A stretch of 64,000 bases of DNA from Chloroflexota bacterium (GCA_042408925.1 JBHOQO010000096.1:2728-66727), one strand, 5' to 3'; positions 27,412 through 41,746 are shown, counted from the first letter of the stretch. The notes: a model not told the origin generated them from the sequence alone. Translations and numbers: made by a program.

Positions 27412-29139
27412 CTACTCCAGGTAGTCCTTCAGCTTCCGCGATCGACTCGGGTGGCGGAGCTTTCGGAGCGCCTTCGCCTCGATCTGGCGGATCCGCTCCC
27501 GCGTCACGTTGAACTCCTTGCCCACCTCCTCGAGGGTCCGGGCCCGCCCGTCTTCGAGGCCGAACCGGAGCTGCAGGACCCGCCGCTCCCGACCGGTGAG
27601 CGAACCCAGGACAGCCTCGACCTGCTCGCGGAGGAGTTGGCGCGAGGCCGCGTCGGCAGGCGCCACCGCCCCGCGATCCTCGATGAAGTCGCCGAGGTGG
27701 GAGTCCTCCTCCTCGCCGACCGGAGCCTCGAGCGAGACCGGCTCCTGGCTCACCTTCATGATCTCCCGGACCCGCTCGGGCCCGACCGGCTGCTCCTGAC
27801 CCCGCGACATCGCCTCGGCGATCTCCTCGAGCGTGGGCTCCCGCCCCAGATCCTGGAGAAGCTGGCGGGAGACCCGCATGAGGCGGTTGATCGTCTCGAC
27901 CATGTGGACCGGGATCCGGATCGTCCGAGCCTGGTCGGCGATCGCCCGGGTGATCGCCTGCCGGATCCACCAGGTCGCGTACGTCGAGAACTTGTAGCCC
28001 TTTTCGTACTCGAACTTCTCGACCGCCCGGATGAGCCCGATGTTCCCCTCCTGGATGAGGTCGAGGAAGCTCATCCCCCGGCCGATGTACTTCTTCGCGA
28101 TCGAGACGACGAGCCGCAGGTTCGCGGCCGTGAGCTGCTCACGGGCCTCTCGCCCGAGGCGGACGACCTCGCCCTTCCGGTGGAGGAGCTTCGTGCCCGC
28201 CGGGACCGACGGGTCGTAGCCCATCCGTCGGAGGAGCTCGGCGTCGTGGCCGGCCCGGATCCAGCGTTCGAGGGCCGGGTAGGCGACGGCCTCCCGGGTC
28301 CAGTCGTAGATCGCCCGGAGGCTCGGGTTGTCCCGGGACTCGACGTCGCCGCTGTGGACGGCCTGGTACGCCCAATCGAGGAGCGGCAGGAACGTCTCCG
28401 CGGACGGGGCGGCGACGTAGGCGGCGAGGAGTCGCCGGGCCTGCCGGAGGTGGGCCCGGGTCGGCTCGTGGCTCGTCGCCCGGACCGCCCGCTGGAGGTG
28501 GACGTCGGGCGGCGGACCGAAGAGCTCCCTCGCCTCCGGTGCCGCAAGGGCGGCCCGAACGATCCGGTGGGCGTCCTCGGCGAAGGGCAGTCGGTACTGC
28601 TCGCGGGTCGCCCGGGTCGCCGCCTCGGTCCGGTGGAGCGTCCATTCGTGGAGGCTGACGAGCGCCTTCCACGGCGCCTCGGCCATCTGCTCACCGAGCT
28701 CGATCGCCTTGGCGAGGACGACCTCCTCCTCGGCCGTCAGGAGCGGAACCTTCCCGATCTCCTTGAGATACATCCGGACCGGGTCGTCGATCCCGACGAC
28801 GTCGGCCTCGAGGTCCTCGAGCTCCTCGGGGCTCGGCTCCTCGAGGGTGACCGCATCGAGGTCGCCGGGTCCCTCGTCCGCCTCGTCGTACCCTCCGTCC
28901 ACGTCGGCTTCGATGGCCGCGGCGACGACGGCGTCGGGGACCTCGGCGAGCGGCTCGGTTCCGAGCTCGGGATCGAGCTCCCCCTCGAGCTCGCCCGGGG
29001 CCGGCTCGTCCCGGTCGGCCGCTCCTCCCCCGCGCCGCCGCCGCGACGCCGCCAGGCGCGCCTCCGCCAGCTCGGTCGCCGACGGTCGCGGCCGTCGGAG
29101 CAGCCCCTCGACGAGCCGCCGATCGAGCGGGTCGGACAT
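27412..29139 (-). CDS. rpoD: Primary-type RNA polymerase sigma factor (RpoD/SigA) with a large non-conserved-region insertion
   Basis: Region 1.2 ([22 protein letters not shown]), 2.x ([32 protein letters not shown]), 3 and 4.2 ([29 protein letters not shown]). Start at the internal Met (MSDPLDRR). Confidence 0.9.
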
Positions 29140-29218
29140 CGTCAGCCTCGGACGCTCCGCGGATCCCGGCCCGCGAGCCCCCGGCACTTCGGTCGCCCGG
29201 CCGCCACGGCGCTCCTCC

Positions 29219-31229
29219 CTACGGCACCGCGGCCGCCGGGCGACGAGCGGGGTCCGGGCTCCGCCGGGCCAGGAGGCGGGCCTGCTCACGGCGGCGGTGG
29301 AGCGAGCGCCAGGCCTCGTGGATCTGGCGCTCCTGGGCGAGGAGCTCGGTCATCGCCGCCCGGTCGCCGCGGCGCTCCGCCTCGGCCTGGGCAGCCCGGT
29401 TGTACTCGCTCCGCTCGGCGAGCGCCTCGGCCTCGAGGTTGAGGACGAGGTTCTCCAGTTCGTAGACCTGACGCTCGGGGGACAGGAGCCGCGGATCGGG
29501 TCCCTCGATGGCGAGGACGGCCGTGGCGAGGGCTCGAACCTCCGGCTCGAGCGCGGCCCGCAGCCGCTCGAGGTCGAAGGCCCCGGGGACCCCGGCGTCG
29601 TCCGGTGCCCGCATCTCGACGATCGCCCGGTAGAGCTCCCGAGCGAGGGTCGACGGCAGCTGGTCGGGGCCGAGCTCCTCGACGGCCCGGAGCTGGAGCT
29701 CGGGGACGAGGAGCAGGAGGCGGAGGAGCTCGACCTCGCTCGGACTGACCGCCCGGACGACCTCGCGCGGGTGGAGCTCCTCCGACGCCGCCCGGACCGC
29801 CTCGAGGGTCAGCCGGATCCCGCCGTGGTCGGTGTCCCCGGCCGCCCGCCCGATCGCGGTCCGGCTCCGGAGCGCCTCCCGGAGGACGTCGACGTCGGTC
29901 GCCGCGCGGCGGGCGAGGTGGAGGAGCGCCCCGTCGCGGACCGTCGGGTCGGCGACCCGCCGCAGGACCGGCAGGACCGCGTCGACGAGCCGCCGTCGGC
30001 CGTCGGCCGTCCGGACGTCGACCCGGGCGGCGTGGACGTCGACGAGGTACTCGAGGATGCCGACCGGCGCCGCGACGGCCGCCGCCCAGATCTCCGGCGA
30101 GTCGCGGATGACCTCGTCCGGATCCCGGCCCTCGGGCAGCCGAACGACGCCGACGTCGGTGAGCCCGAACTCCGCCCCCGCCGTCTGGACCTCCGAGATC
30201 AGGGCGGTCAGCTCGCTGACCCCGAAGGCGCCGGCGCTCTGGCCGGCCGGATCGACGTCGTAGGCGAGGGCGACCCGCCGGGCATAGCGGCCGAGGATCG
30301 CGACCTGGCCGGGGGTGAGGGCCGTCCCGAGGGAGGCGACGACGTTCTCGAAGCCGGCCTGGTGGGCCATGAGGGCGTCGGTATAGCCCTCGACGAGGAC
30401 GGCCTGGCCGCTCCGCCGGATCGCCGCCTTCGCCCGGTCGATGAGATAGAGGGTTCGGCTCTTGTCGAAGAGCGGCGTCGCCGGCGAGTTCAGGTACTTG
30501 GGCCCGACGTCCCGCCGACCCGCCTCGCCGCGCCCGCCCTCACCGGTGCCCGAGCCGGACCCGGGCTCCGACCCCTCGAGGATCCGACCCCCGAGCCCGG
30601 TCGGCGCGCCGGACGCGTCCCGGATCGGGAAGATGATCCGGGACCGGAAGCGGTCGTAGGCGCCCCGACCGCCGGGCCGCGGCACGGTCAGCCCCGCGGC
30701 GGCGAGCTCCTCGGGGGTGATCCCGCGCCGCCGCCCGAGCTCCCGGCTCAGCGTGTCCCAACCGGCCGGCGCCCAGCCAAGCTGGAAGCGCTCGATCGTC
30801 GCGTCGCTGAAGCCCCGGCGACGGAGATAGTCGAGGGCGGGCTGGCCGACCCGATGACCGGTGAGGACGGCGTGGTAGAAGGCGATCGCCGTCTCGAGGA
30901 CCTCCCGAAGGCGCGCCCGCCGCCCGTCGTCCCGGCTCGGGCGCTCGTCCAGCTCGACCCCGGCCCGGGCCGCCAGCCGCCTGAGCGCCTCCGGAAAGCC
31001 GACCCCGTCCCGCTCCATCACGAAGCTGAAGACGTCACCGCCCTTCCCGCAGCCGAAGCACTTGTACGTGCCGCGAGCCGGGGTGACGACGAAGCTCGGC
31101 GTCTTCTCGGCGTGGAACGGACAAAGCCCCTTGAACGTCGTCCCGGCCTTTCGGAGCGCGACGGTCTCGCCGACGACGTCGACGATGGAGAGTCTGCTCT
31201 TGATCTCGGCCGCTGCGCCGACCGCCAAT
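29219..31229 (-). CDS. dnaG: DNA primase DnaG
   Basis: CHC2 zinc finger ([37 protein letters not shown]) and TOPRIM ([30 protein letters not shown]). The 5' 220 codons of the ORF are low-complexity antisense. The only candidate start before the first conserved residues is a TTG near 31229. Confidence 0.85.
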
Positions 31230-31409
31230 CGGACCTCCCGACGCGCCCCCGCGTCCGACCGTTGCGCACCCGCCGGACACGACTGTGGGCCTGTCAAGTC
31301 TTGACAGGCCGACGGGCGCCGATTGTATGCCCGCCCCGCGGCGCCGACAAGCGAAGCGCCGATACCCGCGCCGAGGCTCCGATCGGCCGGCCGGCCGGCC
31401 TCGGGGTAC

Positions 31410-32344
31410 GCTCCAGCGTGATGCGTCCGTTCCGCTTCGCCGTCACGGCCGCCTGGGCCCCCGATGCGGCAGCCTGGCAGGACCTCGCCCGCCGCGCCGA
31501 GGCGCTCGGCTACGACGCCCTCGTCGTCCCCGACCACCTCGCACGCCAGCTCGCCCCGATCGCCGCCCTCGCGACCGCGGCGGCCGCGACGACCCGCCTC
31601 CGGATCGGCTCGTACGTCTTCGCCAACGACTTCCGCCACCCGCTCGTCCTCGCCCGGGAGGTCGCCACCCTCGACCGCCTCTCGGGCGGCCGGGTCCTCC
31701 TGGGGCTCGGGGCCGGCTGGCGGATCCCCGACTACCGCCAGCTCGGGCTCCCGTACGATCCGCCGGGAACCCGGATCGAGCGACTCGCCGAAGCCGTCGG
31801 CCTCGTGAAGCGGCTCCTGGCGGGCGAGGAGGTGACCCACACCGGCCGGCACTATCGGTTCGAGCGGGCGACGGTCGAGCCCCGGCCGATCCAGCGGCCC
31901 CACCCCCCGATCATCCTCGGCGGGGGCGGACGCCGGATGCTTCGGCTCGCCGCCCGCGAGGCCGACATCGTCGGTCTCCTCCCCCAGTTCGACGCCCGGG
32001 GGCGACCGATCGTCCGCCAGGCGACCGAGGCGGCGACGGCAGCGAAGGTCGCCCTCGTCCGTGAGGCGGCCGGCTCACGCTGGGGGAGCTTCGACCTCGA
32101 CGTCCTCGTCGCCGACGCCGGGCTCGTCGACTGGCCGCGGCGGCCCCTCCGATCGGTCTGGAGCCTCGCCGCCGCCGGCGCCGGGGCCCTCGTCGGGACC
32201 CCGTACCTGCTCCACGGCACGCTTCGACGCCTCGAAGCCCTCCTCCTCCGCCGCCGCGAGGCCTGGGGCCTGAACTCGTACACCGTCCCCGCCGACGCCA
32301 TGGAGGCGATCGCCCCGCTCGTCGAGCGACTCGCCGGACGCTGA
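31410..32344 (+). CDS. LLM-class (luciferase-like) F420-dependent oxidoreductase
   Basis: MRPFRFAVTAA...LGYDALVVPDHL...RLRIGSYVF...GGRVLLGLGAGW is a luciferase-like monooxygenase fold, F420-dependent class. The rest of ORF 28709.. is antisense junk. Confidence 0.85.
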
Positions 32345-32460
32345 CGGCGCCCCGCTCACCCCCCGGACGCCGCGCGGCTCACCCGCCGGACGGCGCCCCG
32401 CTCAACAGCGGGACGGCGCGCGGCTCACCCCCCGGACGGCGCCAGCCTCCCTGCCGAGCG
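32345..32460. repeat. Approx 23-bp tandem repeat (ACGGCGCSCSGCTCACCCCCCGG) x5 spanning the convergent gap and the 3' end of the MutS-like A gene
   Basis: Seen directly: ctgacggcgccccgctcaccccccgg / acgccgcgcggctcacccgccgg / acggcgccccgctcaacagcggg / acggcgcgcggctcaccccccgg / acggcgccagcctccctgccgag. Confidence 0.75.
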
Positions 32461-33987
32461 GCCGTCGGTCGCCTCGGCCGGCTCGGGGTCCGCCCCGGCC
32501 TCGGCCCCGAAGACCCGGCGATAGACGTCGACACCGTGGCTCGAGCCCTCGGGCGCCCCGGGCACGATCCGGAACGTCCGCGTCCCGTCCGGGCGACGCT
32601 CGGCCCGCAGGAACCGGGTCCCGGCCCGGCCGGCTGTGGCGAGCCCCTCGGCGAGGTCGATGAGATGGGTCACGTAGGCGACCCGGACGTCCGAGTCGAC
32701 GAGCGCCTCGACGACGCCCCGAGCGATCGCCGACCCCTCGCGCTCGTTCGTGGAGCTGAACGACTCGTTGAGGAGGACGAGGTCACCGGGCTGGAGCCCA
32801 TCGACGATGGCGCGCATCCGGGCGAGCTCCTCGTCGAGCTTGCCGCGCCGGAGCGTCTCGTCCTCCTCCCGACTGAAGTGACTGACGACCCGCCGGGCGA
32901 GGGCCGCCCGGTAGGCCCGGGCGGGAACCGGGAGCCCGGCCGCCATGAGGAGCTGGGCCAGCCCGAGGCTCCGGAGGAACGTCGACTTGCCGCCCTGGTT
33001 CGCACCCGTCACGACGAGGAGCCGGGCACCGTCGGCCGCGAGGTCGTTGGCCACGACCGGCTCACCGAGCCTGAGGAGGAGCGCCGCGTCGCCGAGCGCC
33101 TCGGCCCGCAGGGCGAGCGAACCGACCGGCAGCGGCTCCGGCAGACAGGTCGGCCCGAGGGAGGAGAGCCGGGCCTGGAGGTTCACGGCCCCGAGGTAGA
33201 AGGCAACCTCGTCGCGGAGGAGCCGGAAGAAGTCGAGGACGTGGTCGGCCGACGCCGCCACCGCCGCCGCGGCAAGGCTCACGCCGCGACCGGTCAACTC
33301 GGCGAGGGCCCGGAAGCCGCTCTCGTCTCGATCGGGGACCTCGTAGACGTACGTCGAACCGTCGGAGAGACCGAGCCGCTCCCGCCAGCCCGGCCGGCCG
33401 ATCCGCCGCCGGAGGACGTAGTTCACCCCCCGGTTCCCGGCGCCGAGCTCGGCGGTGACGATGATTCCGTCGTCGAAGCGGAGTCGCCGGAGGTGACCCT
33501 CGACGGCCTCGAGGTACGGCTCGTCGAGCTCCCGGCAGAGCATCTCGAAGAGGGTCCGGAAGCCCTCGGAGGCGACGGCCGCGCGCCGTTCCTCGGCGAG
33601 CTGCCGCAGGCGGCGAAGGACGTCGACGAACTGGCCGATGACCTCGACCGACCGGCGGAGCACCGTCTCCGGGTGACGGCTCCAGAGGCCGCCGTAGACC
33701 CGCCGCTCCCGCTCGATCGCCTCGACGGCAAGGTCGTAGCACCGTCGCGGCGTCGTCGGGTCGGTGAGGCAGTCGGCGACGATCGCCTGCCGATACCGGA
33801 CGACGGCCGGATCGTCGGTCCCGGCGAGGACGACCGCCCGAGCGACTTCCGAGATCCGGCGGTCGCCGTCGGCCATCGCCTCGAAGAGGAGCTCGAGCCC
33901 GAGATCGTCGACGAGCGCCTGCTCGAGGGGATCGAGCTCGCGGTCGAGCTCGGCATCGCGGTCGGGGTAGAGGAGCCTGGGCTTCAT
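32425..33987 (-). CDS. MutS-family ATPase paralog A (MutS domain III/V only; no mismatch-binding, clamp or Smr domains)
   Basis: An internal Met of the 1188-aa ORF gives a 520-aa protein with Walker A GANQGGKSTFLRSLGL, the MutS ST-type motif and Walker B-like LVLLNESFSSTNEREG. Its ATG overlaps the stop of paralog B as ATGA. Confidence 0.8.
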   Translation of the reverse strand: MKPRLLYPDRDAELDRELDPLEQALVDDLGLELLFEAMADGDRRISEVARAVVLAGTDDPAVVRYRQAIVADCLTDPTTPRRCYDLAVEAIERERRVYGGLWSRHPETVLRRSVEVIGQFVDVLRRLRQLAEERRAAVASEGFRTLFEMLCRELDEPYLEAVEGHLRRLRFDDGIIVTAELGAGNRGVNYVLRRRIGRPGWRERLGLSDGSTYVYEVPDRDESGFRALAELTGRGVSLAAAAVAASADHVLDFFRLLRDEVAFYLGAVNLQARLSSLGPTCLPEPLPVGSLALRAEALGDAALLLRLGEPVVANDLAADGARLLVVTGANQGGKSTFLRSLGLAQLLMAAGLPVPARAYRAALARRVVSHFSREEDETLRRGKLDEELARMRAIVDGLQPGDLVLLNESFSSTNEREGSAIARGVVEALVDSDVRVAYVTHLIDLAEGLATAGRAGTRFLRAERRPDGTRTFRIVPGAPEGSSHGVDVYRRVFGAEAGADPEPAEATDGRSAGRLAPSGG

Positions 33988-35615
33988 CGGTGCCCGTTCT
34001 CCCGATCGGCGAGGGCGGCCCGGATCTGCTCGTACGTGAGGCCGTGCTTCGCGGCGAGGGCAACCGCGTAGGCCCGACCGTCGGCCGGCCGGCGCTCGAT
34101 CCGGTACGTCCGGATCGTGGGGTCGGCCGGGTCGACCCCGGCGACCATGCTGACGACGGCCGGCCCGAGGATGGCGAGCTCGTCGAGGAAGGTGACGCAG
34201 ACGACGAGCATGTCCCGGCCGGCCATCGTCCGGAGCATGACCCGGTTCAAGAAGAGGGCGTCGGTCGCCGACGTCGAGCTGAAGCTCTCGTTCATGACGA
34301 CGAGGCTCTCCGACGTCGCCGCCTCGAGGATCGCCCGGAAGCGCCGCAGGTCGCGCTCGAGCTTGCCCTCGAGGGTCGAGACGTCTTCGCGGCGCTCGAA
34401 GTGGGTCAGGATCCGATCGACGAGCGGGCAGCGAACCTCGCGACCGGGGACCGGGAGCCCGAGGGCGGCCAGATGGTGGAGCTGGCCGATCGCCCGGGCG
34501 AAGGTCGTCTTGCCGCCCTGGTTCGGACCCGAGACGACGACGATCCGCTCCGCTCCGGCGAGCTCGACGTCGTTCGTGACGATCCGCCCGCCGGCCGCGG
34601 CGAGCCCGTCGGCGAGGGCGAGGTCGAAAATCCCCCGCGCGCGCAGGGTTCGGTCGCCGGCGGCGACGACCGGATAGCAGAACGACAGGCCGCGGCCGCG
34701 GAGCCGCTCGACGTGCTCGAGGTAGGCGAGATAGAAGGCGACCTCCGCGTCGAAGCGTTCGACGACCGGGTCGACGAACGCGGCGTGGCGCTCGAGGACC
34801 GCCTCGACGTCGGCGAAGACCGCGGGGTGGAGCCGGACGACCCGGTCGAGGATCGCCGCCTCGACATGGTTCATCGTCGTGCTGCGGCCGACGTCGAAGC
34901 GGTACTCCTTCGTCGTCCCCTGCCGGAACTTCTCGAAGACGGCGAGGATCTCCGCGCCGTAGTCGGGCTCGCCGCGGTCGCGGGCGACGCGGATCCGGTT
35001 CCCGGAGATGTGGAGCCGGTAGCGGAGCTCGCCGAGGGCGGCGAGGACCCGCCCGACGTCGGCCTCGAGGGTGCGAAACCGCTCCGACGAGCGGTACTCC
35101 TCGATGAACGCCAGGATCCGACGGAACCCGGTCGACTGCGGCCGGCCGGCGGCGAGCCCCTCGGCAAGGCTCGCGACGGCCCGGCAATACGCGGCGGCGG
35201 CATCGAGGAACCAACGCGATCCCTCGTGCCGGTAGTAGGAATGGCGTGCCCGCCCGAGGCGGCGGCGGACGCCGTCCATCTCCGACCGGAATTCGCGGAC
35301 GACGGCGGCGATCTCCGGCCGCTCGAGGTCGCGGCAGACCGCCTGGCGGTACTCGATCGCGGCGACCCGATCCAGGGGCCGTTCGAACGCCGCCCGCAGC
35401 TCGGCGGCGGCCGATTCGTCCTGCCGACCGGCGAGAACCGCGTCGAACACCTGATCGAGCCGGAGATCGACGAGGGCATCGGCGGCGAGGGTATCGAGGG
35501 GCGACGGCGGCCCCTCGGGAACGACGTCCCAGAGGACGCTCGGCACGGCCTCGCCGAGCGCGTCCCGGGAGGCGTCCCGGGCTCGACGGCCGCGGGGCTC
35601 GAGCGCGCCGCTCAT
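33984..35615 (-). CDS. MutS-family ATPase paralog B (MutS domain III/V only)
   Basis: 543 aa: GPNQGGKTTFARAIGQL, LVVMNESFSSTSATDA, and a helical lever-like N-terminal half. Diverged from paralog A. The same N-E replacement of the Walker B D-E is present. Confidence 0.8.
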   Translation of the reverse strand: MSGALEPRGRRARDASRDALGEAVPSVLWDVVPEGPPSPLDTLAADALVDLRLDQVFDAVLAGRQDESAAAELRAAFERPLDRVAAIEYRQAVCRDLERPEIAAVVREFRSEMDGVRRRLGRARHSYYRHEGSRWFLDAAAAYCRAVASLAEGLAAGRPQSTGFRRILAFIEEYRSSERFRTLEADVGRVLAALGELRYRLHISGNRIRVARDRGEPDYGAEILAVFEKFRQGTTKEYRFDVGRSTTMNHVEAAILDRVVRLHPAVFADVEAVLERHAAFVDPVVERFDAEVAFYLAYLEHVERLRGRGLSFCYPVVAAGDRTLRARGIFDLALADGLAAAGGRIVTNDVELAGAERIVVVSGPNQGGKTTFARAIGQLHHLAALGLPVPGREVRCPLVDRILTHFERREDVSTLEGKLERDLRRFRAILEAATSESLVVMNESFSSTSATDALFLNRVMLRTMAGRDMLVVCVTFLDELAILGPAVVSMVAGVDPADPTIRTYRIERRPADGRAYAVALAAKHGLTYEQIRAALADRENGHR

Positions 35616-36076
35616 CGCCGACCTCCGTTCGATCGCGCGGTCGACGCAGCAGGCGACCCGTCAGGCTCGGGCGCCACCCCGAGCGATCGGGAGCGGGACC
35701 GCCGGGCGGGTCCGAGGGCTGCCGCGGCGGCCCGCCGGACGACGACGGGGCCTCCCGCCGCGAGCTCCAGGAGCCGGCCCCGGACCCGCGGCACGTCGGC
35801 GAAGGCACCGAGGGCGCGCGCCGCCGCCGCCGCCCGGTACGGATCGCTCGAGCCCGTCGCCTCGAGGAGCGGCCCGATCGCCCGCCGAGCTCCCCTCGCT
35901 CCGAGGATCTCGGCGGCGAGGACGGCCGTCTCGGTGTCGGGATGGCGGAGCGCCCAGACGAGTCGGTCGTCGAACGCCTCCTCGGTCGCAAGGGCGGCCC
36001 CGCAGCGCTCGCAGAAGGACGCCTCGAACGGGTTGTGGGCGTAGCACGCCGGGCAGTAGCGGACGAGATCCGTCAT
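35612..36076 (-). CDS. Zinc-ribbon plus HEAT-repeat (PBS-lyase-like) protein
   Basis: CPACYAHNPFEASFCERCG (CxxC...CxxC) followed by HEAT-like repeats (LRHPDTETAVLAAEILGARGARRAIGPLLEAT..DPYRAAAAARALG). ATGA overlap with MutS-like B. Confidence 0.65.
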   Translation of the reverse strand: MTDLVRYCPACYAHNPFEASFCERCGAALATEEAFDDRLVWALRHPDTETAVLAAEILGARGARRAIGPLLEATGSSDPYRAAAAARALGAFADVPRVRGRLLELAAGGPVVVRRAAAAALGPARRSRSRSLGVAPEPDGSPAASTARSNGGRR

Positions 36077-36082
36077 CGCCGT

Positions 36083-36445
36083 TCACCTCCCGACGGCCGC
36101 CAGGACGGCGAGCCCGATGAGGTAGGGCCCGACGAGGACGACCAGGAGCGCGAGCCAGTCGCGGGCCCGCAACGGCGGTACGCCGGGGGCCGGACAGCCG
36201 CGGATCGTCCGGACGAGGGTCCGGGCGGCGATCGCCAGCCGTCGGGCGCGCTCGGCGTCCGAGAGAACGGCGGGATGGAGCGCGGAGCTCGGGGCCGAAC
36301 GACCGCCGAACGAGCGCGACCGCGGCCGGCCCAGGGTCGGGCGACCCCGCCGCCGCGTCCGCGTCGGGCGGGCGGGAGCGGTTGGATCAGGGGAACCGTG
36401 CCGGACTTCGAGATCGACGACCATCGCTGACACCTCCTGCGCCAC
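36083..36445 (-). CDS. Small hypothetical protein with a C-terminal TM helix
   Basis: 120 aa with a C-terminal WLALLVVLVGPYLIGLAVLAAVG. It sits 6 bp upstream of the Zn-ribbon/HEAT gene and is likely the first gene of the operon. Confidence 0.4.
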   Translation of the reverse strand: MAQEVSAMVVDLEVRHGSPDPTAPARPTRTRRRGRPTLGRPRSRSFGGRSAPSSALHPAVLSDAERARRLAIAARTLVRTIRGCPAPGVPPLRARDWLALLVVLVGPYLIGLAVLAAVGR

Positions 36446-36485
36446 TCGTGCGCGTAGAGGCTGTCAGCGGACCACCCGCGGATCC

Positions 36486-36506
36486 CCGGGTCGGGACGCG
36501 ACCCGG
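36486..36506 (-). terminator. GC-rich stem-loop (CCGGGTCG-GGACG-CGACCCGG) downstream of the protease gene
   Basis: A perfect 8-bp stem seen directly. There is no U-tract, which is common in high-GC genomes. It would separate the protease transcript from the MutS-like operon. Confidence 0.3.
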
Positions 36507-36597
36507 GCCGGCGAGCCTCATCGCCGATGCCGATATCGTAGCCGAGACGCAGGACCGTGCCCGATCCGACGAGGCGAAGGGTCGGGGCGCCTCCGAT

Positions 36598-37596
36598 CTA
36601 CGGGCCGACGATCGTGTTCGTCGTCGCCGCATTCGCCGCGTCGTAGACCGCCTGGGTATCCGCGTCGAACTTCGGCCCGTGCATGACGTTCTTCACCGAG
36701 CGGTACGTGTACGAGTTCACCGAGGTGAGCGTCCCCGTCCCGCTGGTCGGGTCAAAGCCGGTAAACCACGGACCGCCCGACGAGCCGCCCGTCATGTCGC
36801 AGGCGAGGGCATACGTGAGGTTGCCGTTGTAGGGATCGGAGCCGACCGGCCCGGCGCAGTAGACGAGGTCGCTCCCGTTGTACTTCCCGGCCGCCGGATA
36901 CCCGAAGGCGTACGTCGTCGTCCCGTCGCCGACGGCCGAGAACCGGATCGGGAAGGCGCCGACCGTCGCGTCGAGCTGCCCGCCGTTCTTGCCGCCGGGT
37001 CCCACGACGGCGATCGCGTAGTCGTGGAGCGTCGCCTGGGTATTGAAGCTCCCGGCGGAGGCGAACCCGTTGTGGACGACGAGGGCCGTCGCCGTCCAGC
37101 AGCCGTACGTCGTCGCCGAGCAGGTGTACGTCGGGCTGCTGTCGAACTCGGGGATGAAGAGCCAGTTCGTCGCGAAGACCCGGTTCGTCTCGTCGTACGC
37201 GCAGTGGGCGGCCGTGAGGACGAGCGAGTAGCCGGTTCGGCCGTCGGTGACGACGGCACCCGAGCAGACGTAGGCGGTTCCGCGGAGCTCGAAGTAGACG
37301 CGCCCGGTGGCGTGGTAGGCGGTCGTGTCGGTCTTCGTCCACGAGGCGCCGGTCACCGTGCCGCTCCCGCCGCCCGGCTTGCCGCCCCCGCCGGGGCGCT
37401 TCGCCGGAGCGAACCCGTCACGGGTCCCGAGGACGACGTCGCGCGGCACGGCAGCCCGGAGCCGCTCGGGCGTCCAGCGGGCGATCGCGCGAAGGTGATC
37501 CGCCCAGCCCCGATCGACGGCCGCCGACGGGGCGGCGACGAGGGCGACGAGGAGGGCGGTCGCGAGGACGGTGGAGGCGGCGAGTCGCCGGGACAT
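36598..37596 (-). CDS. Secreted trypsin-like (S1 family) serine protease
   Basis: Signal peptide MSRRLAASTVLATALLVALVAAPSAA. His motif LTAAHC and Ser motif GGSSGGPWF. Multiple Cys pairs. Confidence 0.8.
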   Translation of the reverse strand: MSRRLAASTVLATALLVALVAAPSAAVDRGWADHLRAIARWTPERLRAAVPRDVVLGTRDGFAPAKRPGGGGKPGGGSGTVTGASWTKTDTTAYHATGRVYFELRGTAYVCSGAVVTDGRTGYSLVLTAAHCAYDETNRVFATNWLFIPEFDSSPTYTCSATTYGCWTATALVVHNGFASAGSFNTQATLHDYAIAVVGPGGKNGGQLDATVGAFPIRFSAVGDGTTTYAFGYPAAGKYNGSDLVYCAGPVGSDPYNGNLTYALACDMTGGSSGGPWFTGFDPTSGTGTLTSVNSYTYRSVKNVMHGPKFDADTQAVYDAANAATTNTIVGP

Positions 37597-37751
37597 CGGT
37601 TCCGTCTCCCCGGAGCAAGATTGGACGGAACCTTCATACTGGATCGCCGGGGCGGCGTCAATGGCCGGCCCGTCGATCGGTGGCCGTCCGCACCGGAGCG
37701 AGGACCGCCGCCGCAATTCGCCGCGCCAATTCGAGCTACGGAGGGTTGTCG

Positions 37752-38297
37752 ATGCGCCTCGAAGGGATGCGCGTCCTCGTCCTCGCCGCCGACGGGGTCG
37801 AGGACCTCGAATACTGGGTCACCGTCATGCGCCTCCGGGAGGAAGGCGCCGTCGTTCGGACGGCCGGGCTCGCTCCGGGCACGGTCCGGGGCAAGAACGG
37901 CCTCGCCGTCCCGGTCGAGCTGCCCGTGGCGGAGGTCCGCCCGGACGACGTCGATGCCCTCGTCGTCCCCGGCGGCTGGGCACCCGACAAGCTCCGCCGC
38001 TACCGCACCGTGACCGATCTCGTCGCGGCCGTCCACGCGGCCGGCAAGCCGATGGCGATCATCTGCCACGGCGGCCTCGTCGCGATCTCGGCCCGGATCG
38101 TCGCCGGGCGACGGGCGACCGGCTCGCTCGGGATCAAGGACGACCTGGAGAACGCCGGCGCCACCTGGGTCGACGAGCCCGCCGTCCGGGACGGGACGCT
38201 CGTCTGGGGCCGGGTCGTCGACGACATCCCGGCCTTCCTCCGCGAGGCCGTCGCCTGCTTCGCCGAGCACCACGCGGCGGTCCGCACCGCCGGCTGA
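37752..38297 (+). CDS. DJ-1/PfpI family protein (class I glutamine amidotransferase-like)
   Basis: MRVLVLAADGVEDLEY...ALVVPGGWAPD...AIICHGGLV carries the nucleophile-elbow Cys. GGAGGG RBS upstream. Confidence 0.8.
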   Translation: MRLEGMRVLVLAADGVEDLEYWVTVMRLREEGAVVRTAGLAPGTVRGKNGLAVPVELPVAEVRPDDVDALVVPGGWAPDKLRRYRTVTDLVAAVHAAGKPMAIICHGGLVAISARIVAGRRATGSLGIKDDLENAGATWVDEPAVRDGTLVWGRVVDDIPAFLREAVACFAEHHAAVRTAG

Positions 38298-38322
38298 CGA
38301 ACCCGCCGGCGGGTCACGCCGC

Positions 38323-39735
38323 TCAGCCGGTGCCCGCGACGGCGCCTCCGTTCGCGTCCGCAGGGCCCGCCGCCTCCGCCGCCTGGTACGCCTCGAGGAG
38401 GAGCTGCGAGACGTGGCGGACCCGCTGCCGCCGGCCGGAGCGCCGCAGCCCCATCTCGATCTGGCCGAGGCAGCCCGGGTTCGCGGTCACGACGACCTCG
38501 GCCTCGGTGGCGGCGACGTTGGCGACCTTCGTGGAGAGGAGGGCGAGCGATTCGTCCCAGCGCCGGAACGTGTAGACCCCGGCCGACCCGCAGCACACGT
38601 CGGCGCCGGCCATCTCCCGCAGCTCCAATCCGGGGATCGACCGGAGGAGGGCCCGCGGCGCGGCCGTGATCCGCTGGGCGTGGGCGAGGTGGCACGGCTC
38701 GTGGTACGTCACGACCCGCTCGACCCGACCGAGGGGCGGCCCGGCGGGCAGGAGCTCGAGGGCGAGCTCGGTGAAGTCGCGGGTCTTCGCGGCGATCGCC
38801 CGGGCCCGGTCGGCCCAGGCCGGATCGTCGGCGAGGAGGTCGCCGTACTCCTTGAGCATCCCCGAGCAGGCGGCGCAGTCGGCGAAGACGACGTCGGCGC
38901 CGGTCGCTTCGAGGGCGGCGACGTTTCGGCGGGCGAAGTCCCGGGCGATCTCCACCTCCCCGAGGTCGGTCTGCGGCGCCCCGCAACAGACGAGGTCCGC
39001 CGGGGTCACGACCTCGACCCCGTTCCGCCGGAGGACCTCGACGGCGGCCTCGGCGGCGTCGGCGAAGACGGCGTTCATGAAGCAGCCGAGGAAGTAGGCG
39101 GCTCGGAGCCGACGCGGCCCGTGGGCCTCGAGATGGGTTCCGGCGTCGGGGTAGCGCCACCGCCACGGCCGATCCGGGAGCTCCGGGAGCCAGGCCTCGA
39201 GGCGGCCGAGGGGTCCGAGGAGCCGCATGATCCCGCTCGCCCGGAGGAGGCGCTGGAGGCCGGTCCGCTGGTAGCCCCAGCGCAGGAGCGTGAGCGGCCA
39301 CTCCATCCGCCGCGGGCGCCCGAAGACGATCCGTTGGAGGAGACGCCGCCCGGCGCGGACGACGGCCGACTCCCGCCGGTCGGGGTTGTCGGGTCGCTGG
39401 GCGGCCGCCCGACCCTCGAGGACGATCGTCCCGATGGGCACCCCGACCGGGCAGACCGGCTCGCAGGCCCGACAGTCGAGGCAGTCGTACATCTGGCGGA
39501 GGAAGGCGTCGTCGAGGGCGAGCGAGCCGCCCGCTGCGGCCCGGACGAGCTGGACGCGACCCCGGGGCGACTCGCGCTCGAGGAGCGTCGCCTCGTACGT
39601 CGGGCAGGCGGCGAGGCAGGCCCCGCAGCGGATGCAGGCGTCCGCGCCGGCGAGGTGATCGAAGAGCTCGGCGAGGGGGCCCCGCGGTCGGTCGAGCCCG
39701 GCGAGCGGGTCGGCGGGCGGCGGAGGGGCGATCAC
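38323..39735 (-). CDS. glcF: (Fe-S)-binding oxidoreductase subunit, GlcF-like (two 4Fe-4S Cys clusters plus CCG domains)
   Basis: CIRCGACLAACP and CLDCRACEPVCP ferredoxin motifs. C-terminal CCG cysteine-rich domains (VVTYHEPCHLAH, CCGSAG). Confidence 0.85.
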   Translation of the reverse strand: MIAPPPPADPLAGLDRPRGPLAELFDHLAGADACIRCGACLAACPTYEATLLERESPRGRVQLVRAAAGGSLALDDAFLRQMYDCLDCRACEPVCPVGVPIGTIVLEGRAAAQRPDNPDRRESAVVRAGRRLLQRIVFGRPRRMEWPLTLLRWGYQRTGLQRLLRASGIMRLLGPLGRLEAWLPELPDRPWRWRYPDAGTHLEAHGPRRLRAAYFLGCFMNAVFADAAEAAVEVLRRNGVEVVTPADLVCCGAPQTDLGEVEIARDFARRNVAALEATGADVVFADCAACSGMLKEYGDLLADDPAWADRARAIAAKTRDFTELALELLPAGPPLGRVERVVTYHEPCHLAHAQRITAAPRALLRSIPGLELREMAGADVCCGSAGVYTFRRWDESLALLSTKVANVAATEAEVVVTANPGCLGQIEMGLRRSGRRQRVRHVSQLLLEAYQAAEAAGPADANGGAVAGTG

Positions 39736-41321: not shown

Positions 41322-41746
41322 CGCGTCCGCTCCGGCGGATCGGCCCGGCCGGGTCCCGCGTCGGACGCCGCGGCCGCCGTCCCGGTCGTCGCGGCCGGCG
41401 TCGAGGCCGGACCGTGATGGTGGTGGTGCTCGTGGGAGGCCACCGGCCGCTGCGGCGGCGGAGCAAGCTCCGGATGGCGTCGCTCGAGCTCGAGGCGCCG
41501 GTCGACGATCCGCTGCCAGCGGGCGATCGTCTCGCGATCGCCGCGCCCCACCGCCTCCCAGCTCGTCGGCCAGGTCGATCGGTCGGGCCCGAGATCGGCG
41601 TGCCCGAGCCGCGCAAAGGGGCTCGGCACCCGCCGGGCGTCCCTCGCCCCGCAGACGGCACACTCGACCGGGCCCGCCGCCGCGGAGAGCGGCTCGAAGC
41701 GCTCGAACCGCGCCCCGCAGCGGCAGCGGTACTCGTAGACTGGCAT
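41318..41746 (-). CDS. FmdB family zinc-ribbon protein with a His-rich stretch
   Basis: MPVYEYRCRCGARFERFE...VECAVCGA is the FmdB CxxC...CxxC motif. HEHHHHHG lies near the C-terminus. Confidence 0.7.
   Translation of the reverse strand: MPVYEYRCRCGARFERFEPLSAAAGPVECAVCGARDARRVPSPFARLGHADLGPDRSTWPTSWEAVGRGDRETIARWQRIVDRRLELERRHPELAPPPQRPVASHEHHHHHGPASTPAATTGTAAAASDAGPGRADPPERTR

What the first reader, a model, noticed from the sequence alone, without database searches (positions are those of the whole stretch)
32425..36445. Operon of two translationally coupled, diverged MutS domain-V-only ATPase paralogs with a Zn-ribbon/HEAT protein and a small membrane protein
Two adjacent genes (520 and 543 aa, ATGA stop-start overlap) encode MutS-family ABC ATPases that keep the lever/domain III-like helical region and domain V (Walker A GxNxGGKST, ST motif). 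They lack mismatch-binding domain I, connector, clamp and Smr/KOW modules. Both carry Asn where Walker B normally has Asp (LLNESF, VMNESF versus canonical LLDEIG), while the catalytic Glu is kept. Upstream, with 6-bp and 4-bp junctions, sit a small TM protein and a CxxC..CxxC zinc-ribbon/HEAT-repeat protein. MutS ATPases work as dimers with composite ATP sites, so two diverged, co-translated paralogs suggest an obligate heterodimer, by analogy with eukaryotic MSH heterodimers. A HEAT scaffold and a membrane anchor are not part of any characterised mismatch-repair or MutS2/RqcU system. The function is open: DNA or ribosome surveillance, or defence. A 23-bp tandem repeat overlaps the 3' end.
Basis: partly seen in the sequence, partly recalled or inferred. 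Interest (0 to 1): 0.8.

Follow-up and report, generated by a model that had tools for sequence, protein, structure and literature searches.

The report
Fluoride-riboswitch operon with paired MutS-like ATPases
The two MutS-like genes are real, but they belong to an already described and very widespread gene pair (MutS4A/MutS4B) that sits behind a fluoride-sensing riboswitch, here and in most relatives, so this is a fluoride-stress operon of unknown biochemical role, not a new repair or defence system.

Summary
On the minus strand, four tightly packed genes encode a 113-aa tail-anchored protein, a 154-aa zinc-ribbon/HEAT protein, and two MutS-like ATPases of 543 and 520 aa joined by ATGA overlaps. 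Both ATPases carry an invariant Walker-B Asn.

The interpretation needs revising in three ways:
- **Known pair.** It matches the MutS4A/MutS4B description of Lin, Nei & Ma (2007). In 80 genomes from many bacterial and archaeal phyla it keeps the same order, and 67 of 75 loci with both genes keep a 4-bp overlap.
- **Missed leader.** An 87-nt fluoride-riboswitch variant lies at 36448-36534 (-). It scores 22.5 bits against Rfam's cut-off of 34. Its core is invariant in six relatives and it overlaps an anti-Shine-Dalgarno helix.
- **Fluoride context.** In relatives, 46 of 67 pairs have a fluoride riboswitch within 300 nt upstream and 61 of 67 within 3.5 kb. Neighbours are crcB, enolase, DUF190, antiporters and dynamin-like GTPases. 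"mutS" behind this riboswitch was noted in 2010.

New here are the clade-specific zinc-ribbon/HEAT and small membrane partners. Also new are the asymmetric H-loop (His in one paralog, Phe in the other) and the family-wide Walker-B Asn. The biochemical target is unknown. I found no sign of defence or of a frameshifted MutS2.

The parts
36535..36540 (-). Probable -10 promoter element (TACGAT; TAnnAT in all six relatives), just 5' of the aptamer
   Evidence: In the alignment of six orthologous leaders, T1, A2, A5 and T6 are invariant while the flanks vary. This is an inference only. The E. coli-type promoter scan found nothing in this high-G+C DNA.
36448..36534 (-). Fluoride riboswitch aptamer, a divergent variant. 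P1 is 36525-36522 paired with 36513-36510. A 23-nt inserted hairpin lies at 36507-36485. P3 is 36479-36476 paired with 36470-36467. The pseudoknot pairs loop GAGGC (36519-36515) with tail GCCUC (36461-36457).
   Evidence: Rfam RF01734 scores 22.5 bits against a gathering score of 34, with E 0.0084 in 8 kb and 4e-4 in 401 nt. My own model R1 scores 22.2 bits, E 0.0011 in 1.2 Mb. The same element lies at the same place in L006, L086, L090, L091 and L093. Its core is invariant and the insertion hairpin changes in a compensatory way. The loop/tail variant AGGC/GCCUC is the second most common among the 150 riboswitch hits examined.
36425..36469 (-). Expression platform. A helix pairs the aptamer's 3' strand (36469-36457) with the Shine-Dalgarno region and spacer (36436-36425). 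The SD AGGAGG is at 36438-36433.
   Evidence: The minimum-free-energy fold is -28.1 kcal/mol, z = -2.58. The helix uses the nucleotides that form P3 and the pseudoknot, so the two folds exclude each other. The sequence is conserved in six relatives. No U-tract follows it, so control of translation is more likely than termination (inference).
36083..36424 (-). Small conserved protein (113 aa): basic, probably disordered N-terminus, conserved core (S.AER.RRL..A...LVRTI..CPAPGV.P.R.RDWLA) and a hydrophobic C-terminal anchor
   Evidence: Orthologues sit directly upstream of the HEAT gene in L006, L086, L090, L091, L092 and L093, at 51-72% identity with 35 invariant positions. There are no Pfam, NCBIfam, PADLOC or PHROG hits.
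35612..36076 (-). Zinc-ribbon plus HEAT-repeat protein (154 aa), likely adaptor subunit
   Evidence: Pfam HEAT_2 scores 2.9e-11 and the zinc-ribbon models score weakly. C8, C11, C22, C25 and the WALRHPD motif are invariant in 18 homologues. The family is small, with 35 proteins. Every sampled context is next to a MutS pair.
33984..35615 (-). Upstream MutS-like paralog (543 aa; MutS4A position): domain III-like core, reduced clamp, domain V ATPase with Walker-B Asn442 and Phe476 in place of the H-loop His
   Evidence: Pfam MutS_V scores 2.7e-13. The search returned 5039 homologues, and the closest relatives outside this clade are about 50% identical. The model has pLDDT 88 and matches MSH2/3, MutS and MutS2 over the full length.
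32425..33987 (-). Downstream MutS-like paralog (520 aa; MutS4B position): same architecture, Walker-B Asn407, H-loop His441 retained, Arg-rich reduced clamp (YVLRRR..WRER)
   Evidence: Pfam MutS_V scores 8.6e-16. Homologues come and the profile search finds 2064 clusters at E <= 1e-30. The model has pLDDT 85 and matches MutS and the MutS2 core. The motif alignment to Taq MutS and T. thermophilus MutS2 is. It is 37% identical to the other paralog in domain V.
32343..32443 (.). 23-bp tandem repeat (4.4 copies) between the convergent stop codons of the 520-aa gene and an LLM-type oxidoreductase gene
   Evidence: Tandem Repeats Finder score 132. It is found only here in the window. It folds strongly but not exceptionally, z = -1.95. 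Its role is unknown; a bidirectional terminator is possible.

Best explanation
This is a four-gene operon switched on by fluoride.

**Regulation.** Transcription starts a few bases before an 87-nt variant of the fluoride riboswitch. Without fluoride, the 3' strand of the aptamer pairs with the Shine-Dalgarno region of the first gene and blocks translation. When fluoride, with Mg2+, locks the aptamer's pseudoknot, the Shine-Dalgarno sequence is freed. The four genes, separated by 6 bp or overlapping by 4 bp, are then translated as a unit.

**Products.** The core products are the two MutS4-type paralogs. I infer that they form an obligate asymmetric heterodimer of the MutS/ABC type. Each subunit has a helical core, a reduced clamp and an ATPase domain. 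One subunit keeps the H-loop His, which suggests one catalytically competent site. The other has Phe there, which suggests a degenerate site.

**Walker-B Asn.** Both subunits have Asn in place of the Walker-B Asp. In E. coli MutS the same substitution (D693N) empties the Mg2+ site, weakens ATP binding about 15-fold and slows switching. I therefore expect a slow, switch-like ATPase with weakened Mg2+ coordination. This may be an adaptation to Mg-fluoride chemistry.

**Accessory subunits.** In this clade a zinc-ribbon/HEAT protein and a small tail-anchored membrane protein are co-translated with the pair. They probably act as adaptor and membrane tether.

**Target.** What the heterodimer acts on is not known. 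My best guess is an ATP-gated clamp on a nucleic-acid or nucleoprotein substrate that is disturbed by fluoride, such as DNA or stalled ribosomes.

**Shown versus inferred.** Shown: the gene anatomy, the family identity, the riboswitch association across relatives and the motif conservation. Inferred: fluoride binding by this variant, heterodimer formation, the accessory roles and the target.
For: **Riboswitch in the window**
- RF01734 hits at 36448-36534 (-). My own model gives E 0.0011 in 1.2 Mb.
- The same element lies at the same place in five relatives, with an invariant core and compensatory changes in the inserted hairpin.
- The pseudoknot is preserved by a loop/tail variant that is common elsewhere, and the CUGAC variant recurs upstream of other fluoride-associated genes.
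- The anti-SD helix excludes the aptamer fold.

**Association in relatives**
- Rfam hits at gathering level lie directly upstream of the pair in 12 of 18 loci scanned. These include Streptomyces, Mycobacterium kyorinense, Thermoanaerobacter and a Methanomassiliicoccaceae archaeon. In a 13th, a K. pneumoniae plasmid, the riboswitch heads an antiporter-usp-MutS-MutS operon.
- With my model, 46 of 67 pairs have a same-strand riboswitch within 300 nt and 61 of 67 within 3.5 kb.
- Neighbouring genes are CrcB, enolase, DUF190/CBS, Na+/H+ exchangers, MFS transporters, phosphoglycerate-mutase-like proteins and formate-hydrogenlyase-like subunits.
- Weinberg 2010 lists "DNA repair (mutS)" among crcB-motif genes.

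**Heterodimer**
- Fixed order, with a 4-bp overlap in 67 of 75 loci.
- Two distinct orthologue groups: about 450-700 bits within a group against 80-120 bits between groups.
- H-loop asymmetry.
- MutS-family dimers with composite ATP sites are established knowledge.

**Mg2+ site and accessory genes**
- Asn aligns to the Walker-B Asp. The D693N data are from Lebbink 2010.
- Accessory genes.
Against: - The window's aptamer scores 11.5 bits below Rfam's gathering cut-off. It also carries CUGACAG where the consensus has CUGAUGA. Fluoride binding by this variant is untested.
- The window holds no crcB, enolase or other fluoride-associated gene. In this genome the operon stands alone next to dnaG and rpoD.
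- No experiment in the searched literature shows that a MutS4-type pair contributes to fluoride tolerance.
- The E. cloacae FRM fluoride-resistance operon confers high resistance without such a pair.
- The conserved residues of the 543-aa paralog's clamp-like insert are acidic or aromatic, not basic. This weakens the nucleic-acid-clamp idea.
- Heterodimer formation was not modelled, because no multimer prediction was available.
Confidence: 0.7

Rival explanations
1. The heterodimer is a protein-remodelling "reactivase", not a nucleic-acid clamp. It would use ATP to open fluoride-poisoned metalloenzymes, such as enolase or pyrophosphatase carrying Mg/Mn-fluoride-phosphate complexes, and release the inhibitor. 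Regulation by fluoride would be the same as in the best explanation.
For: NCBIfam names a 508-aa MutS-domain-V protein, KamC, as the reactivase ATPase of lysine 5,6-aminomutase. Both paralogs hit that model at 1.9e-17 and 2.1e-11, far below its cut-off, so a non-DNA role has a precedent in this superfamily. Enolase is the most frequent neighbour (25 loci), and phosphoglycerate-mutase-like genes and a pyrophosphatase also occur nearby. The clamp-like insert of the 543-aa paralog is not basic.
Against: The KamC match covers only the ATPase domain and is no better than the matches to MutS1 and MutS2. I found no literature on KamC in the library. The 520-aa paralog has a conserved Arg-rich insert. 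No physical link to enolase is shown.
Confidence: 0.12
2. The heterodimer works at the membrane. It would act with the small tail-anchored protein and the HEAT adaptor in this clade, and with dynamin-like GTPases in other clades, in membrane or envelope maintenance under fluoride and acid stress.
For: Dynamin_N GTPases occur in 22 of the loci. They share an operon with the pair in L024, L073 and L070, and two of them separate the two paralogs in L021. This operon starts with a membrane-anchored protein. Many neighbours are membrane transporters.
Against: Many of the dynamin-like genes have their own riboswitch and lie on the other strand. They may simply be separate members of the same regulon. 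Most pairs have neither a dynamin-like gene nor a HEAT gene nearby. MutS-type folds have no known membrane function.
Confidence: 0.1
3. The riboswitch-like leader in this clade no longer senses fluoride. It would be decayed or re-purposed, and the operon would be expressed constitutively or under another signal. The pair would serve a general DNA or ribosome surveillance role.
For: The score is below Rfam's threshold. There is a U-to-C change in the conserved CUGAUGA segment. The window holds no other fluoride-associated gene.
Against: The aptamer core is invariant across six relatives whose flanks and insertion loops vary, which argues for selection on the fold. The pseudoknot and P3 are intact and compete with an anti-SD helix. 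The same CUGAC variant precedes enolase and phosphatase genes in other loci. More distant relatives that carry the HEAT gene (L087, L088) have 35-bit riboswitches upstream of the pair.
Confidence: 0.1
4. It is an anti-phage defence system, or an artefact made of frameshifted MutS2 fragments.
For: HEAT/ARM and ATPase components do occur in some candidate defence systems, and there is a weak PADLOC HEAT-ARM hit at 1e-4.
Against: No PADLOC model matches the ATPases better than E 0.002. There are no PHROG hits. The only phage match is one weak partial hit. The neighbours are housekeeping or fluoride-associated genes. The two-ORF arrangement with a 4-bp overlap is conserved in 67 of 75 loci. No Smr or KOW domain lies in frame or nearby. 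The few "fused" database proteins are themselves frameshift artefacts.
Confidence: 0.02

Closest known systems
MutS4A/MutS4B subfamily (Lin, Nei & Ma, Nucleic Acids Res 2007, PMC2190696)
   Same: Both proteins show only the MutS ATPase (MutSac / domain V) region by sequence. [quoted passage not shown] Each paralog forms its own group with bacterial and archaeal members. The taxa overlap: Thermoanaerobacter, Chloroflexi and Thermoplasmata-related archaea.
   Different: In 2007 the subfamily was known from five bacterial and two archaeal species and had no proposed function. I did not place the window's proteins in a tree with the named 2007 sequences. The small-protein and HEAT accessory genes and the riboswitch were not part of that description.
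The "mutS" class of genes downstream of the crcB motif / fluoride riboswitch (Weinberg et al. 2010, PMC2864571; from memory, also Baker et al. 2012, Science, which I could not retrieve)
   Same: A fluoride riboswitch lies in the 5' leader of MutS-like genes, among crcB, Cl-/K+ transporter and formate-hydrogenlyase genes.
   Different: Those papers list the association without describing the genes as a translationally coupled pair of domain-III-to-V paralogs with Walker-B Asn. The window's riboswitch is a variant below Rfam's threshold, with a 23-nt inserted hairpin. It controls two extra genes placed ahead of the pair.
MutS2 / RqcU (ribosome-collision sensor and endonuclease)
   Same: The core architecture is similar, lacking the mismatch-binding and connector domains. 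T. thermophilus MutS2 core (7vuf) is the best match by sequence profile (5.6e-23) and by target-normalised TM-score (0.55-0.60). The B. subtilis MutS2-disome complex (7qv3) is also among the top structural hits.
   Different: There are no KOW or Smr domains. It is a heterodimer of two paralogs, not a homodimer. The Walker-B residue is Asn, not Asp. NCBIfam mutS2 scores 68 and 61 bits against a cut-off of 400.
Eukaryotic MSH heterodimers (MSH2-MSH6, MSH2-MSH3)
   Same: Paralogous MutS subunits with unequal ATPase sites. MSH2 and MSH3 chains are the top Foldseek hits for the 543-aa paralog.
   Different: There is no mismatch-binding or connector domain, the proteins are about 520-540 aa instead of more than 900, and the duplication is independent.
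E. coli MutS D693N (Lebbink et al. 2010, PMC2857095; PDB 3k0s)
   Same: The same Asp-to-Asn change at the Walker-B position. In the mutant the Mg2+ pocket is empty and ATP binding is about 15-fold weaker (Kd 0.505 against 0.034 uM).
   Different: That is an engineered loss-of-function mutant of a mismatch-repair enzyme. Here Asn is the invariant natural residue in both paralog families, which implies a selected property.
KamC, lysine 5,6-aminomutase reactivase ATPase (NCBIfam NF052383)
   Same: A MutS-domain-V protein of about 508 aa, of similar size and named for a non-DNA role.
   Different: Only the ATPase domain matches (63 and 43 bits against a cut-off of 300). The gene context is different.

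Membership tests
MutS superfamily (ABC-type ATPase, Pfam MutS_V) | MutS_V domain above Pfam's gathering score, with a Walker A P-loop | tested here: met
   58.9 and 50.8 bits against a cut-off of 30.2. Walker A is GANQGGKST and GPNQGGKTT.
MutS superfamily (ABC-type ATPase, Pfam MutS_V) | Canonical Walker B hhhhDE | tested here: not met
   Asn replaces Asp (LLNESF, VMNESF) and the Glu is kept. The Asn aligns to the D of Taq MutS and Tth MutS2 and is invariant in both families.
MutS superfamily (ABC-type ATPase, Pfam MutS_V) | Helical core/lever (domain III) preceding the ATPase domain | tested here: met
   There is no Pfam MutS_III hit. The predicted structures align to MutS, MSH and MutS2 over 480-590 columns, with probability 1.00 and E down to 1e-17.
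MutS1 (mismatch repair) | N-terminal mismatch-binding domain I and connector domain II | tested here: not met
   No MutS_I or MutS_II hits at E <= 0.1. NCBIfam mutS1 models score 44-66 bits against cut-offs of 480-642. The proteins are only 520 and 543 aa.
MutS2 / RqcU | C-terminal KOW and Smr endonuclease domains | tested here: not met
   No Smr hit. The proteins end shortly after domain V. No such ORF is adjacent. TIGR01069 scores 68 and 61 bits against a cut-off of 400.
MutS4A/MutS4B (Lin et al. 2007) | Only the MutSac (domain V) region is recognisable by sequence | tested here: met
   compared with the description.
MutS4A/MutS4B (Lin et al. 2007) | Two paralogous genes adjacent, with the stop of the first overlapping the start of the second | tested here: met
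   ATGA at 33987-33984. 67 of 75 related loci have a 4-bp overlap.
MutS4A/MutS4B (Lin et al. 2007) | Each paralog groups with its orthologues across bacteria and archaea | tested here: met
   Every locus has one ORF that scores best against the 543-aa protein and one that scores best against the 520-aa protein, with 4- to 6-fold higher scores within a group. Archaeal loci L045 and L074 are included.
MutS4A/MutS4B (Lin et al. 2007) | Placement in a tree with the named MutS4 sequences (T. tengcongensis, C. aurantiacus, T. volcanium) | not tested
Only genus- or family-level relatives were found: Thermoanaerobacter sp. L023, Roseiflexaceae L062 and Methanomassiliicoccaceae L045.
Fluoride riboswitch (Rfam RF01734, crcB motif) | Covariance-model score at or above Rfam's gathering score (34 bits) | tested here: not met
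   22.5 bits in the window. The orthologous leaders score 20-24.4 bits with my own model.
Fluoride riboswitch (Rfam RF01734, crcB motif) | P1 with a GAUG-containing loop, a second stem, and a pseudoknot between the P1 loop and the 3' tail | tested here: met
   Loop GAGGC pairs with tail GCCUC. Loop/tail covariation across the 150 hits is. An insertion at the same site is seen in hits that pass or score well (L035, L087, L088).
Fluoride riboswitch (Rfam RF01734, crcB motif) | Located in the 5' leader of genes of the fluoride regulon, with an expression platform overlapping the aptamer | tested here: met
   It lies 24 nt upstream of the first start codon. The anti-SD helix overlaps P3 and the pseudoknot. 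The downstream genes are the pair that carries bona fide riboswitches in other genomes.
Fluoride riboswitch (Rfam RF01734, crcB motif) | Selective binding of fluoride with Mg2+ | not testable with these tools
   This needs in-line probing, ITC or a reporter assay.
Known anti-phage defence systems (PADLOC-DB 2.0) | A significant match to a defence protein model and a defence-island context | tested here: not met
   The best ATPase hits are E 0.0018-0.003 on the P-loop only, and the HEAT-ARM hit is 1e-4. The neighbours are housekeeping or fluoride-associated genes.

The most novel reading that the evidence does not exclude
MutS4-type heterodimers are a dedicated fluoride-stress machine unrelated to mismatch repair. 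Their invariant Walker-B Asn would re-tune the Mg2+ site so that the ATPase either resists or deliberately senses Mg-fluoride (MgFx/AlFx) trapping. They would work with lineage-specific partners, namely the zinc-ribbon/HEAT protein plus a small membrane anchor here and dynamin-like GTPases elsewhere, to clear a class of fluoride-induced lesions not yet recognised. Examples would be fluoride-trapped GTPase-ribosome complexes or Mg-F-bridged nucleoprotein complexes.
Probability: 0.3. Interest if true: 0.8.

Novelty: new variant of a known kind. Interest (0 to 1): 0.5.

Why it matters
Fluoride riboswitches have been linked to "mutS" genes since 2010. In the searched literature I found nothing on what these proteins do, or even a description of them.

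This analysis joins two separate threads, the MutS4A/MutS4B subfamily and the riboswitch-associated "mutS" genes. It shows the link is the rule: a riboswitch lies within 300 nt upstream of 69% of pairs and within 3.5 kb of 91%.

The pair is spread across many bacterial and archaeal phyla. It also sits on conjugative Klebsiella, Salmonella and Citrobacter plasmids, beside an island like the one proven to confer fluoride resistance in Enterobacter cloacae.

The work also yields concrete handles for experiments:
- an invariant Asn at the Mg2+-coordinating Walker-B position;
- a His/Phe asymmetry between the two ATP sites;
- candidate partner proteins, namely the zinc-ribbon/HEAT protein, a small membrane protein and dynamin-like GTPases.

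If the pair proves to be a fluoride-specific ATP-driven machine, MutS-fold proteins would have a function outside DNA repair and ribosome rescue. It would also show what fluoride damages in cells beyond enolase and pyrophosphatase.

For genome annotation, these genes should not be called "DNA mismatch repair protein MutS".

Tried and rejected
- **Rfam on the whole window at gathering threshold:** no hits. The riboswitch appeared only at E-value threshold, after the neighbourhood analysis pointed to it.
- **PADLOC and PHROGs:** nothing meaningful, so I dropped defence.
- **Phage collection:** one weak partial hit.
- **E. coli-type promoter and terminator scan:** no promoter, and one terminator-like site inside a coding region, which is what chance predicts.
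- **Palindromic Rfam "miRNA" hit at 33881-33959 on both strands, just inside the 520-aa gene:** its fold is not better than shuffled sequence, z = -1.09. I treat it as noise.
- **Apparent single-chain fusions of the two paralogs (P0277, P0279):** I considered these as Rosetta-stone evidence for a heterodimer. Their junctions are garbled, Arg-rich out-of-frame stretches, so they are frameshift artefacts and I did not use them.
- **Papers not held:** Baker et al. 2012 and the 2021 Annual Review on fluoride exporters.
- **Literature searches:** searches for fluoride plus MutS function, for dynamin plus fluoride riboswitch, and for KamC returned nothing useful.
- **P. putida fluoride paper:** no mention of DNA damage or mutagenesis.
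- **Other fluoride genes in the window:** none found among CrcB, enolase, DUF190, antiporter, MFS and dynamin-like proteins.
- **The window's own contig in the contig index:** only a 1.9-kb fragment came back.
- **Multimer structure prediction:** not available, so the heterodimer and the HEAT and small-protein contacts were not modelled.

Full report
**1. What is in the sequence**

The region lies in 74% G+C DNA. It holds four minus-strand ORFs exactly as described:
- a small ORF ending at 36083;
- a 154-aa ORF at 35612-36076;
- a 543-aa ORF at 33984-35615;
- a 520-aa ORF at 32425-33987.

The first junction is a 6-bp gap, and the next two are ATGA overlaps. Pfam detects only MutS_V in the two large proteins, and HEAT_2 plus weak zinc-ribbon models in the 154-aa protein. 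NCBIfam's MutS1, MutS2 and KamC models match only the ATPase domain and fall far below their cut-offs. Tandem Repeats Finder confirms the 23-bp repeat at 32343-32443.

**2. The pair is a large, old family**

Each paralog has thousands of homologues. The closest ones outside the immediate clade are 50-57% identical, and sources name them "MutS-related protein" or "DNA mismatch repair protein MutS". A profile of the 520-aa family finds 2064 clusters at 50% identity with E <= 1e-30.

The best 80 loci span these groups:
- Chloroflexota, Actinomycetota, Bacillota, several proteobacterial groups, Planctomycetota, Verrucomicrobiota, Acidobacteriota and Spirochaetota;
- two archaeal lineages.

In these loci the 543-type gene always precedes the 520-type gene. 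Of the 75 loci with both genes, 67 have a 4-bp overlap (61 ATGA, 5 GTGA, 1 TTGA), three have a 1-bp overlap, and the rest look disrupted. In L021 the two genes are separated by two dynamin-like genes.

This matches what Lin, Nei & Ma (2007) described as MutS4A/MutS4B. [quoted passage not shown] They found them in Thermoanaerobacter, Chloroflexus-type bacteria and Thermoplasmata archaea, with function unknown. I could not build a tree with their sequences, so membership rests on the matching description and taxa.

**3. The neighbourhood points to fluoride**

I clustered the ORFs flanking the pair in the 80 loci. The recurrent families, confirmed with Pfam, were:

| Family | Loci |
|---|---|
| Enolase | 25 |
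| Dynamin_N GTPases | 22 |
| DUF190/CBS | 21 |
| MFS transporters | 17 |
| Proton_antipo_M / formate-hydrogenlyase-like subunits | 17 |
| Na+/H+ exchangers | 12 |
| CrcB | 12 |
| Histidine-phosphatase / phosphoglycerate-mutase-like | 7 |
| HAD hydrolases | 7 |

This is the gene set known to be controlled by fluoride riboswitches (for the review; for the original crcB-motif report, which names "DNA repair (mutS)").

Rfam confirmed it. At gathering threshold, RF01734 lies directly upstream of the 543-type gene in 6 of 10 loci and in 6 of 8 further loci. The second batch includes Streptomyces sp., Mycobacterium kyorinense, Mangrovihabitans endophyticus, Thermoanaerobacterium butyriciformans, Ca. 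Formimonas warabiya and a Methanomassiliicoccaceae archaeon. In one more locus of that batch, a K. pneumoniae plasmid, the riboswitch heads an antiporter-usp-MutS-MutS operon.

I built a covariance model from 11 of these hits. It found 152 matches in the 1.2 Mb of loci. Of 67 loci with a full-length 543-type ORF:
- 46 have a same-strand riboswitch within 300 nt upstream;
- 61 have one within 3.5 kb;
- 62 have at least one anywhere in the locus.

The 11 seed sequences match by construction. The Rfam calls are independent of my model.

**4. The window has the riboswitch too, in a divergent form**

At gathering threshold Rfam finds nothing in the window. At E-value threshold, RF01734 matches 36448-36534 (-) with 22.5 bits (E 0.0084 in 8 kb; 4e-4 in 401 nt). 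My model gives 22.2 bits (E 0.0011 over 1.2 Mb). The element ends 24 nt before ATG 36424, the likely start of the small ORF, which is preceded by AGGAGG.

Its parts are:
- P1 (GGCG...CGCC) with the GAUG-containing loop;
- a 23-nt hairpin inserted between P1 and the second stem, at the site where the passing hit in L035 and the high-scoring hits in L087 and L088 also carry insertions;
- the second stem (GCGG/CCGC);
- a pseudoknot between loop GAGGC and tail GCCUC.

Across the 150 hits examined, the loop and tail covary: GAGU/ACUCC 27 times, AGGC/GCCUC 14 times and AAGC/GCUUC 6 times. The window therefore uses the second most common variant. Its unusual CUGAC also recurs upstream of enolase and phosphatase genes in other loci.

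The same element sits at the same place in five relatives that share the four-gene operon (L006, L086, L090, L091, L093). In the six-way alignment the aptamer core is invariant. The 5' flank and the insertion hairpin vary, with compensatory changes in the hairpin stem (U-A, A-U, G-C, G-U). A TAnnAT motif just upstream looks like a -10 element.

The minimum-free-energy fold of the 3' part pairs the aptamer's 3' strand (36469-36457) with the Shine-Dalgarno region and spacer (36436-36425). It scores -28.1 kcal/mol, z = -2.58. That helix and the ligand-bound aptamer exclude each other, which is the standard design of a translational ON switch. Fluoride binding itself is untested.

**5. The two accessory genes are real and clade-specific**

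- **Small protein.** It is conserved in seven contigs (51-72% identity), with an invariant core and a hydrophobic C-terminal segment. It matches no family.
- **Zinc-ribbon/HEAT protein.** It belongs to a small family of 35 proteins, with four invariant Cys and a WALRHPD motif.
- **Linkage to the pair.** Every context I sampled is next to a MutS pair. Six contigs (L006, L086, L090-L093) have small ORF - HEAT - 543 - 520. Four (L087, L088, L047, L015) have 543 - 520 - HEAT, with overlapping or abutting junctions. One (L089) has the HEAT gene 2.6 kb away.

Linkage in two different gene orders argues for a functional, probably physical, partnership. Most of the 80 loci lack both genes, so they are accessories and not part of the core.

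L086, L090, L091 and L093 also share flanking genes with the window. All four share the trypsin-like protease, L086 and L093 also DJ-1/PfpI, and L086 also the GlcD/F-like, LLM-oxidoreductase and DnaG genes. The window is therefore a normal chromosomal locus of this clade. Its nearest named relative is a Chloroflexota MAG.

**6. Protein anatomy**

AlphaFold models built on 116- and 120-sequence alignments are confident (pLDDT 85 and 88; pTM 0.83 and 0.86). Foldseek aligns them over nearly their full length to MutS, MSH2/3/6 and MutS2. The best target-normalised scores are for the T. thermophilus MutS2 core.

The layout is helical core, small beta insert at the clamp position (low confidence), long return helix, then the ATPase domain. 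That is domains III, reduced IV and V.

The two paralogs are homologous over 430 columns (hhalign E 2e-44) and 37% identical in domain V. Three features are conserved across each family:
- Walker-B Asn in place of Asp in both paralogs, with the catalytic Glu kept;
- the H-loop His kept in the 520-aa paralog (H441) but replaced by an invariant Phe (F476) in the 543-aa paralog;
- the MutS "STF" signature replaced by GKL(D/E) in both.

In E. coli MutS, the D693N mutant has an empty Mg2+ pocket and about 15-fold weaker ATP binding. The abstract of that paper reports impaired fast switching and impaired in vivo repair for mutants with lower Mg2+ affinity.

The natural Asn therefore predicts weak Mg2+ coordination and slow, switch-like cycling. 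The His/Phe difference predicts one competent and one degenerate site, as in many heterodimeric ABC proteins. Both points are inferences from sequence.

**7. Mobile copies**

The pair occurs on 48 plasmids, including 21 conjugative ones, in Klebsiella, Citrobacter, Enterobacter, Salmonella, Rhodococcus, Burkholderia and others.

On K. pneumoniae pKp_Goe_579-1 it is annotated "DNA mismatch repair protein MutS" twice. It lies in a riboswitch-headed antiporter-usp-MutS-MutS operon. Next to it is a riboswitch-headed ppaC-usp-eno-gpmA-crcB-ATPase operon, followed by a riboswitch-headed CLC gene. [quoted passage not shown] That strain's island lacks the MutS pair. The pair is thus a frequent but dispensable member of fluoride-resistance islands.

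**8. What it most likely does, and the alternatives**

The regulatory part, a fluoride-induced four-gene operon, is well supported by comparative evidence. The heterodimer is a strong inference. The molecular target is open. I rank the options as follows:
- An ATP-gated clamp or switch on a nucleic-acid or nucleoprotein substrate. For: the MutS fold, the Arg-rich insert in one paralog and the resemblance to the MutS2 core.
- A protein "reactivase" for fluoride-poisoned enzymes. For: the KamC precedent by name and the frequent enolase neighbours.
- A membrane-associated role. For: the small anchor protein here, and dynamin-like GTPases that in some genomes share the operon.

Each is a hypothesis with a stated test. 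Defence and frameshift explanations are contradicted.

**9. Novelty and score**

Known already:
- the paired, overlapping, domain-V-only MutS4A/B genes (2007);
- the presence of "mutS" behind the crcB/fluoride riboswitch (2010).

New as far as the searched literature shows:
- these two are the same thing, and the link is near-universal;
- the invariant Walker-B Asn and the His/Phe asymmetry;
- the zinc-ribbon/HEAT and small membrane partners;
- the sub-threshold riboswitch variant;
- the recurrent dynamin-like neighbours.

The literature library is limited to open-access papers and bioRxiv, so a study in a subscription journal could have been missed. I rate this a new variant of a known kind, of moderate interest (0.5). 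It does sharpen a 15-year-old open question into testable form.

Noticed in passing
L014, L021, L024, L038, L045, L064, L067, L070, L073, L075, L082 and others (e.g. L082:4258-6015): Dynamin-family GTPases (Pfam Dynamin_N, 2.9e-26) occur in 22 of the 80 MutS-pair loci. They are often preceded by their own fluoride riboswitch. In L021 two of them sit between the two MutS paralogs, and in L024, L073 and L070 they share the operon. No paper in the library links dynamin-like proteins to fluoride riboswitches.
   Followed up: partly
L058 (8 hits in 17.5 kb), L014 (7), L036 (7): Some loci are dense fluoride-riboswitch islands, with a separate riboswitch in front of almost every transcription unit. 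In total there are 152 hits in 1.2 Mb around MutS pairs.
   Followed up: partly
L030:13806-14240 (-) and homologues in 10 loci: A protein of about 144 aa with no Pfam match recurs next to enolase and the MutS pair in fluoride islands. It is a candidate uncharacterised member of the fluoride regulon.
   Followed up: no
L087:12048-12140 (-), L088:7337-7427 (-), L008:13429-13522 (-), L047:15676-15768 (-): High-G+C fluoride riboswitches of 86-94 nt carry a 26-28-nt hairpin inserted between P1 and the second stem. They precede Na+/H+ exchanger, DUF190 and CrcB operons. The same insertion site is used in the window's aptamer. Such variants may be under-detected at Rfam's threshold.
   Followed up: partly
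L094 (K. pneumoniae plasmid pKp_Goe_579-1, NZ_CP018313.1 36687-56174): A conjugative IncFIB/IncHI1B plasmid from a human nasal isolate carries a three-riboswitch fluoride island: antiporter-usp-MutS-MutS; ppaC-usp-eno-gpmA-crcB-P-type ATPase; CLC. Similar hits occur on Salmonella, Citrobacter and Enterobacter plasmids.
   Followed up: partly
P0277 (1026 aa), P0279 (942 aa): Database proteins that look like fusions of the two paralogs have garbled, Arg-rich out-of-frame junctions. They are frameshift or gene-calling artefacts, not natural fusions.
   Followed up: yes
window 32343-32443: A 23-bp tandem repeat (4.4 copies; also read as 46 bp x 2.2) fills the gap between the convergent MutS-like and LLM-oxidoreductase genes and supplies the last codons of the 520-aa protein. 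It is not found elsewhere in the window, and its fold is only mildly better than shuffled sequence.
   Followed up: partly
window 27412-31903 (-), about 31433-32344 (+), 36598-41663: The flanking genes are housekeeping or metabolic: rpoD-like sigma factor, dnaG primase, LLM-type oxidoreductase, secreted trypsin-like protease, DJ-1/PfpI, and GlcF- and GlcD-like oxidase subunits. L086 conserves the order on both sides; L090, L091 and L093 conserve the protease side.
   Followed up: partly
L033:3412-3520 (-) and 17185-17287 (+): Two SAM riboswitches flank the MutS-pair locus in Thermoanaerobacterium butyriciformans. They are probably unrelated to the finding.
   Followed up: no
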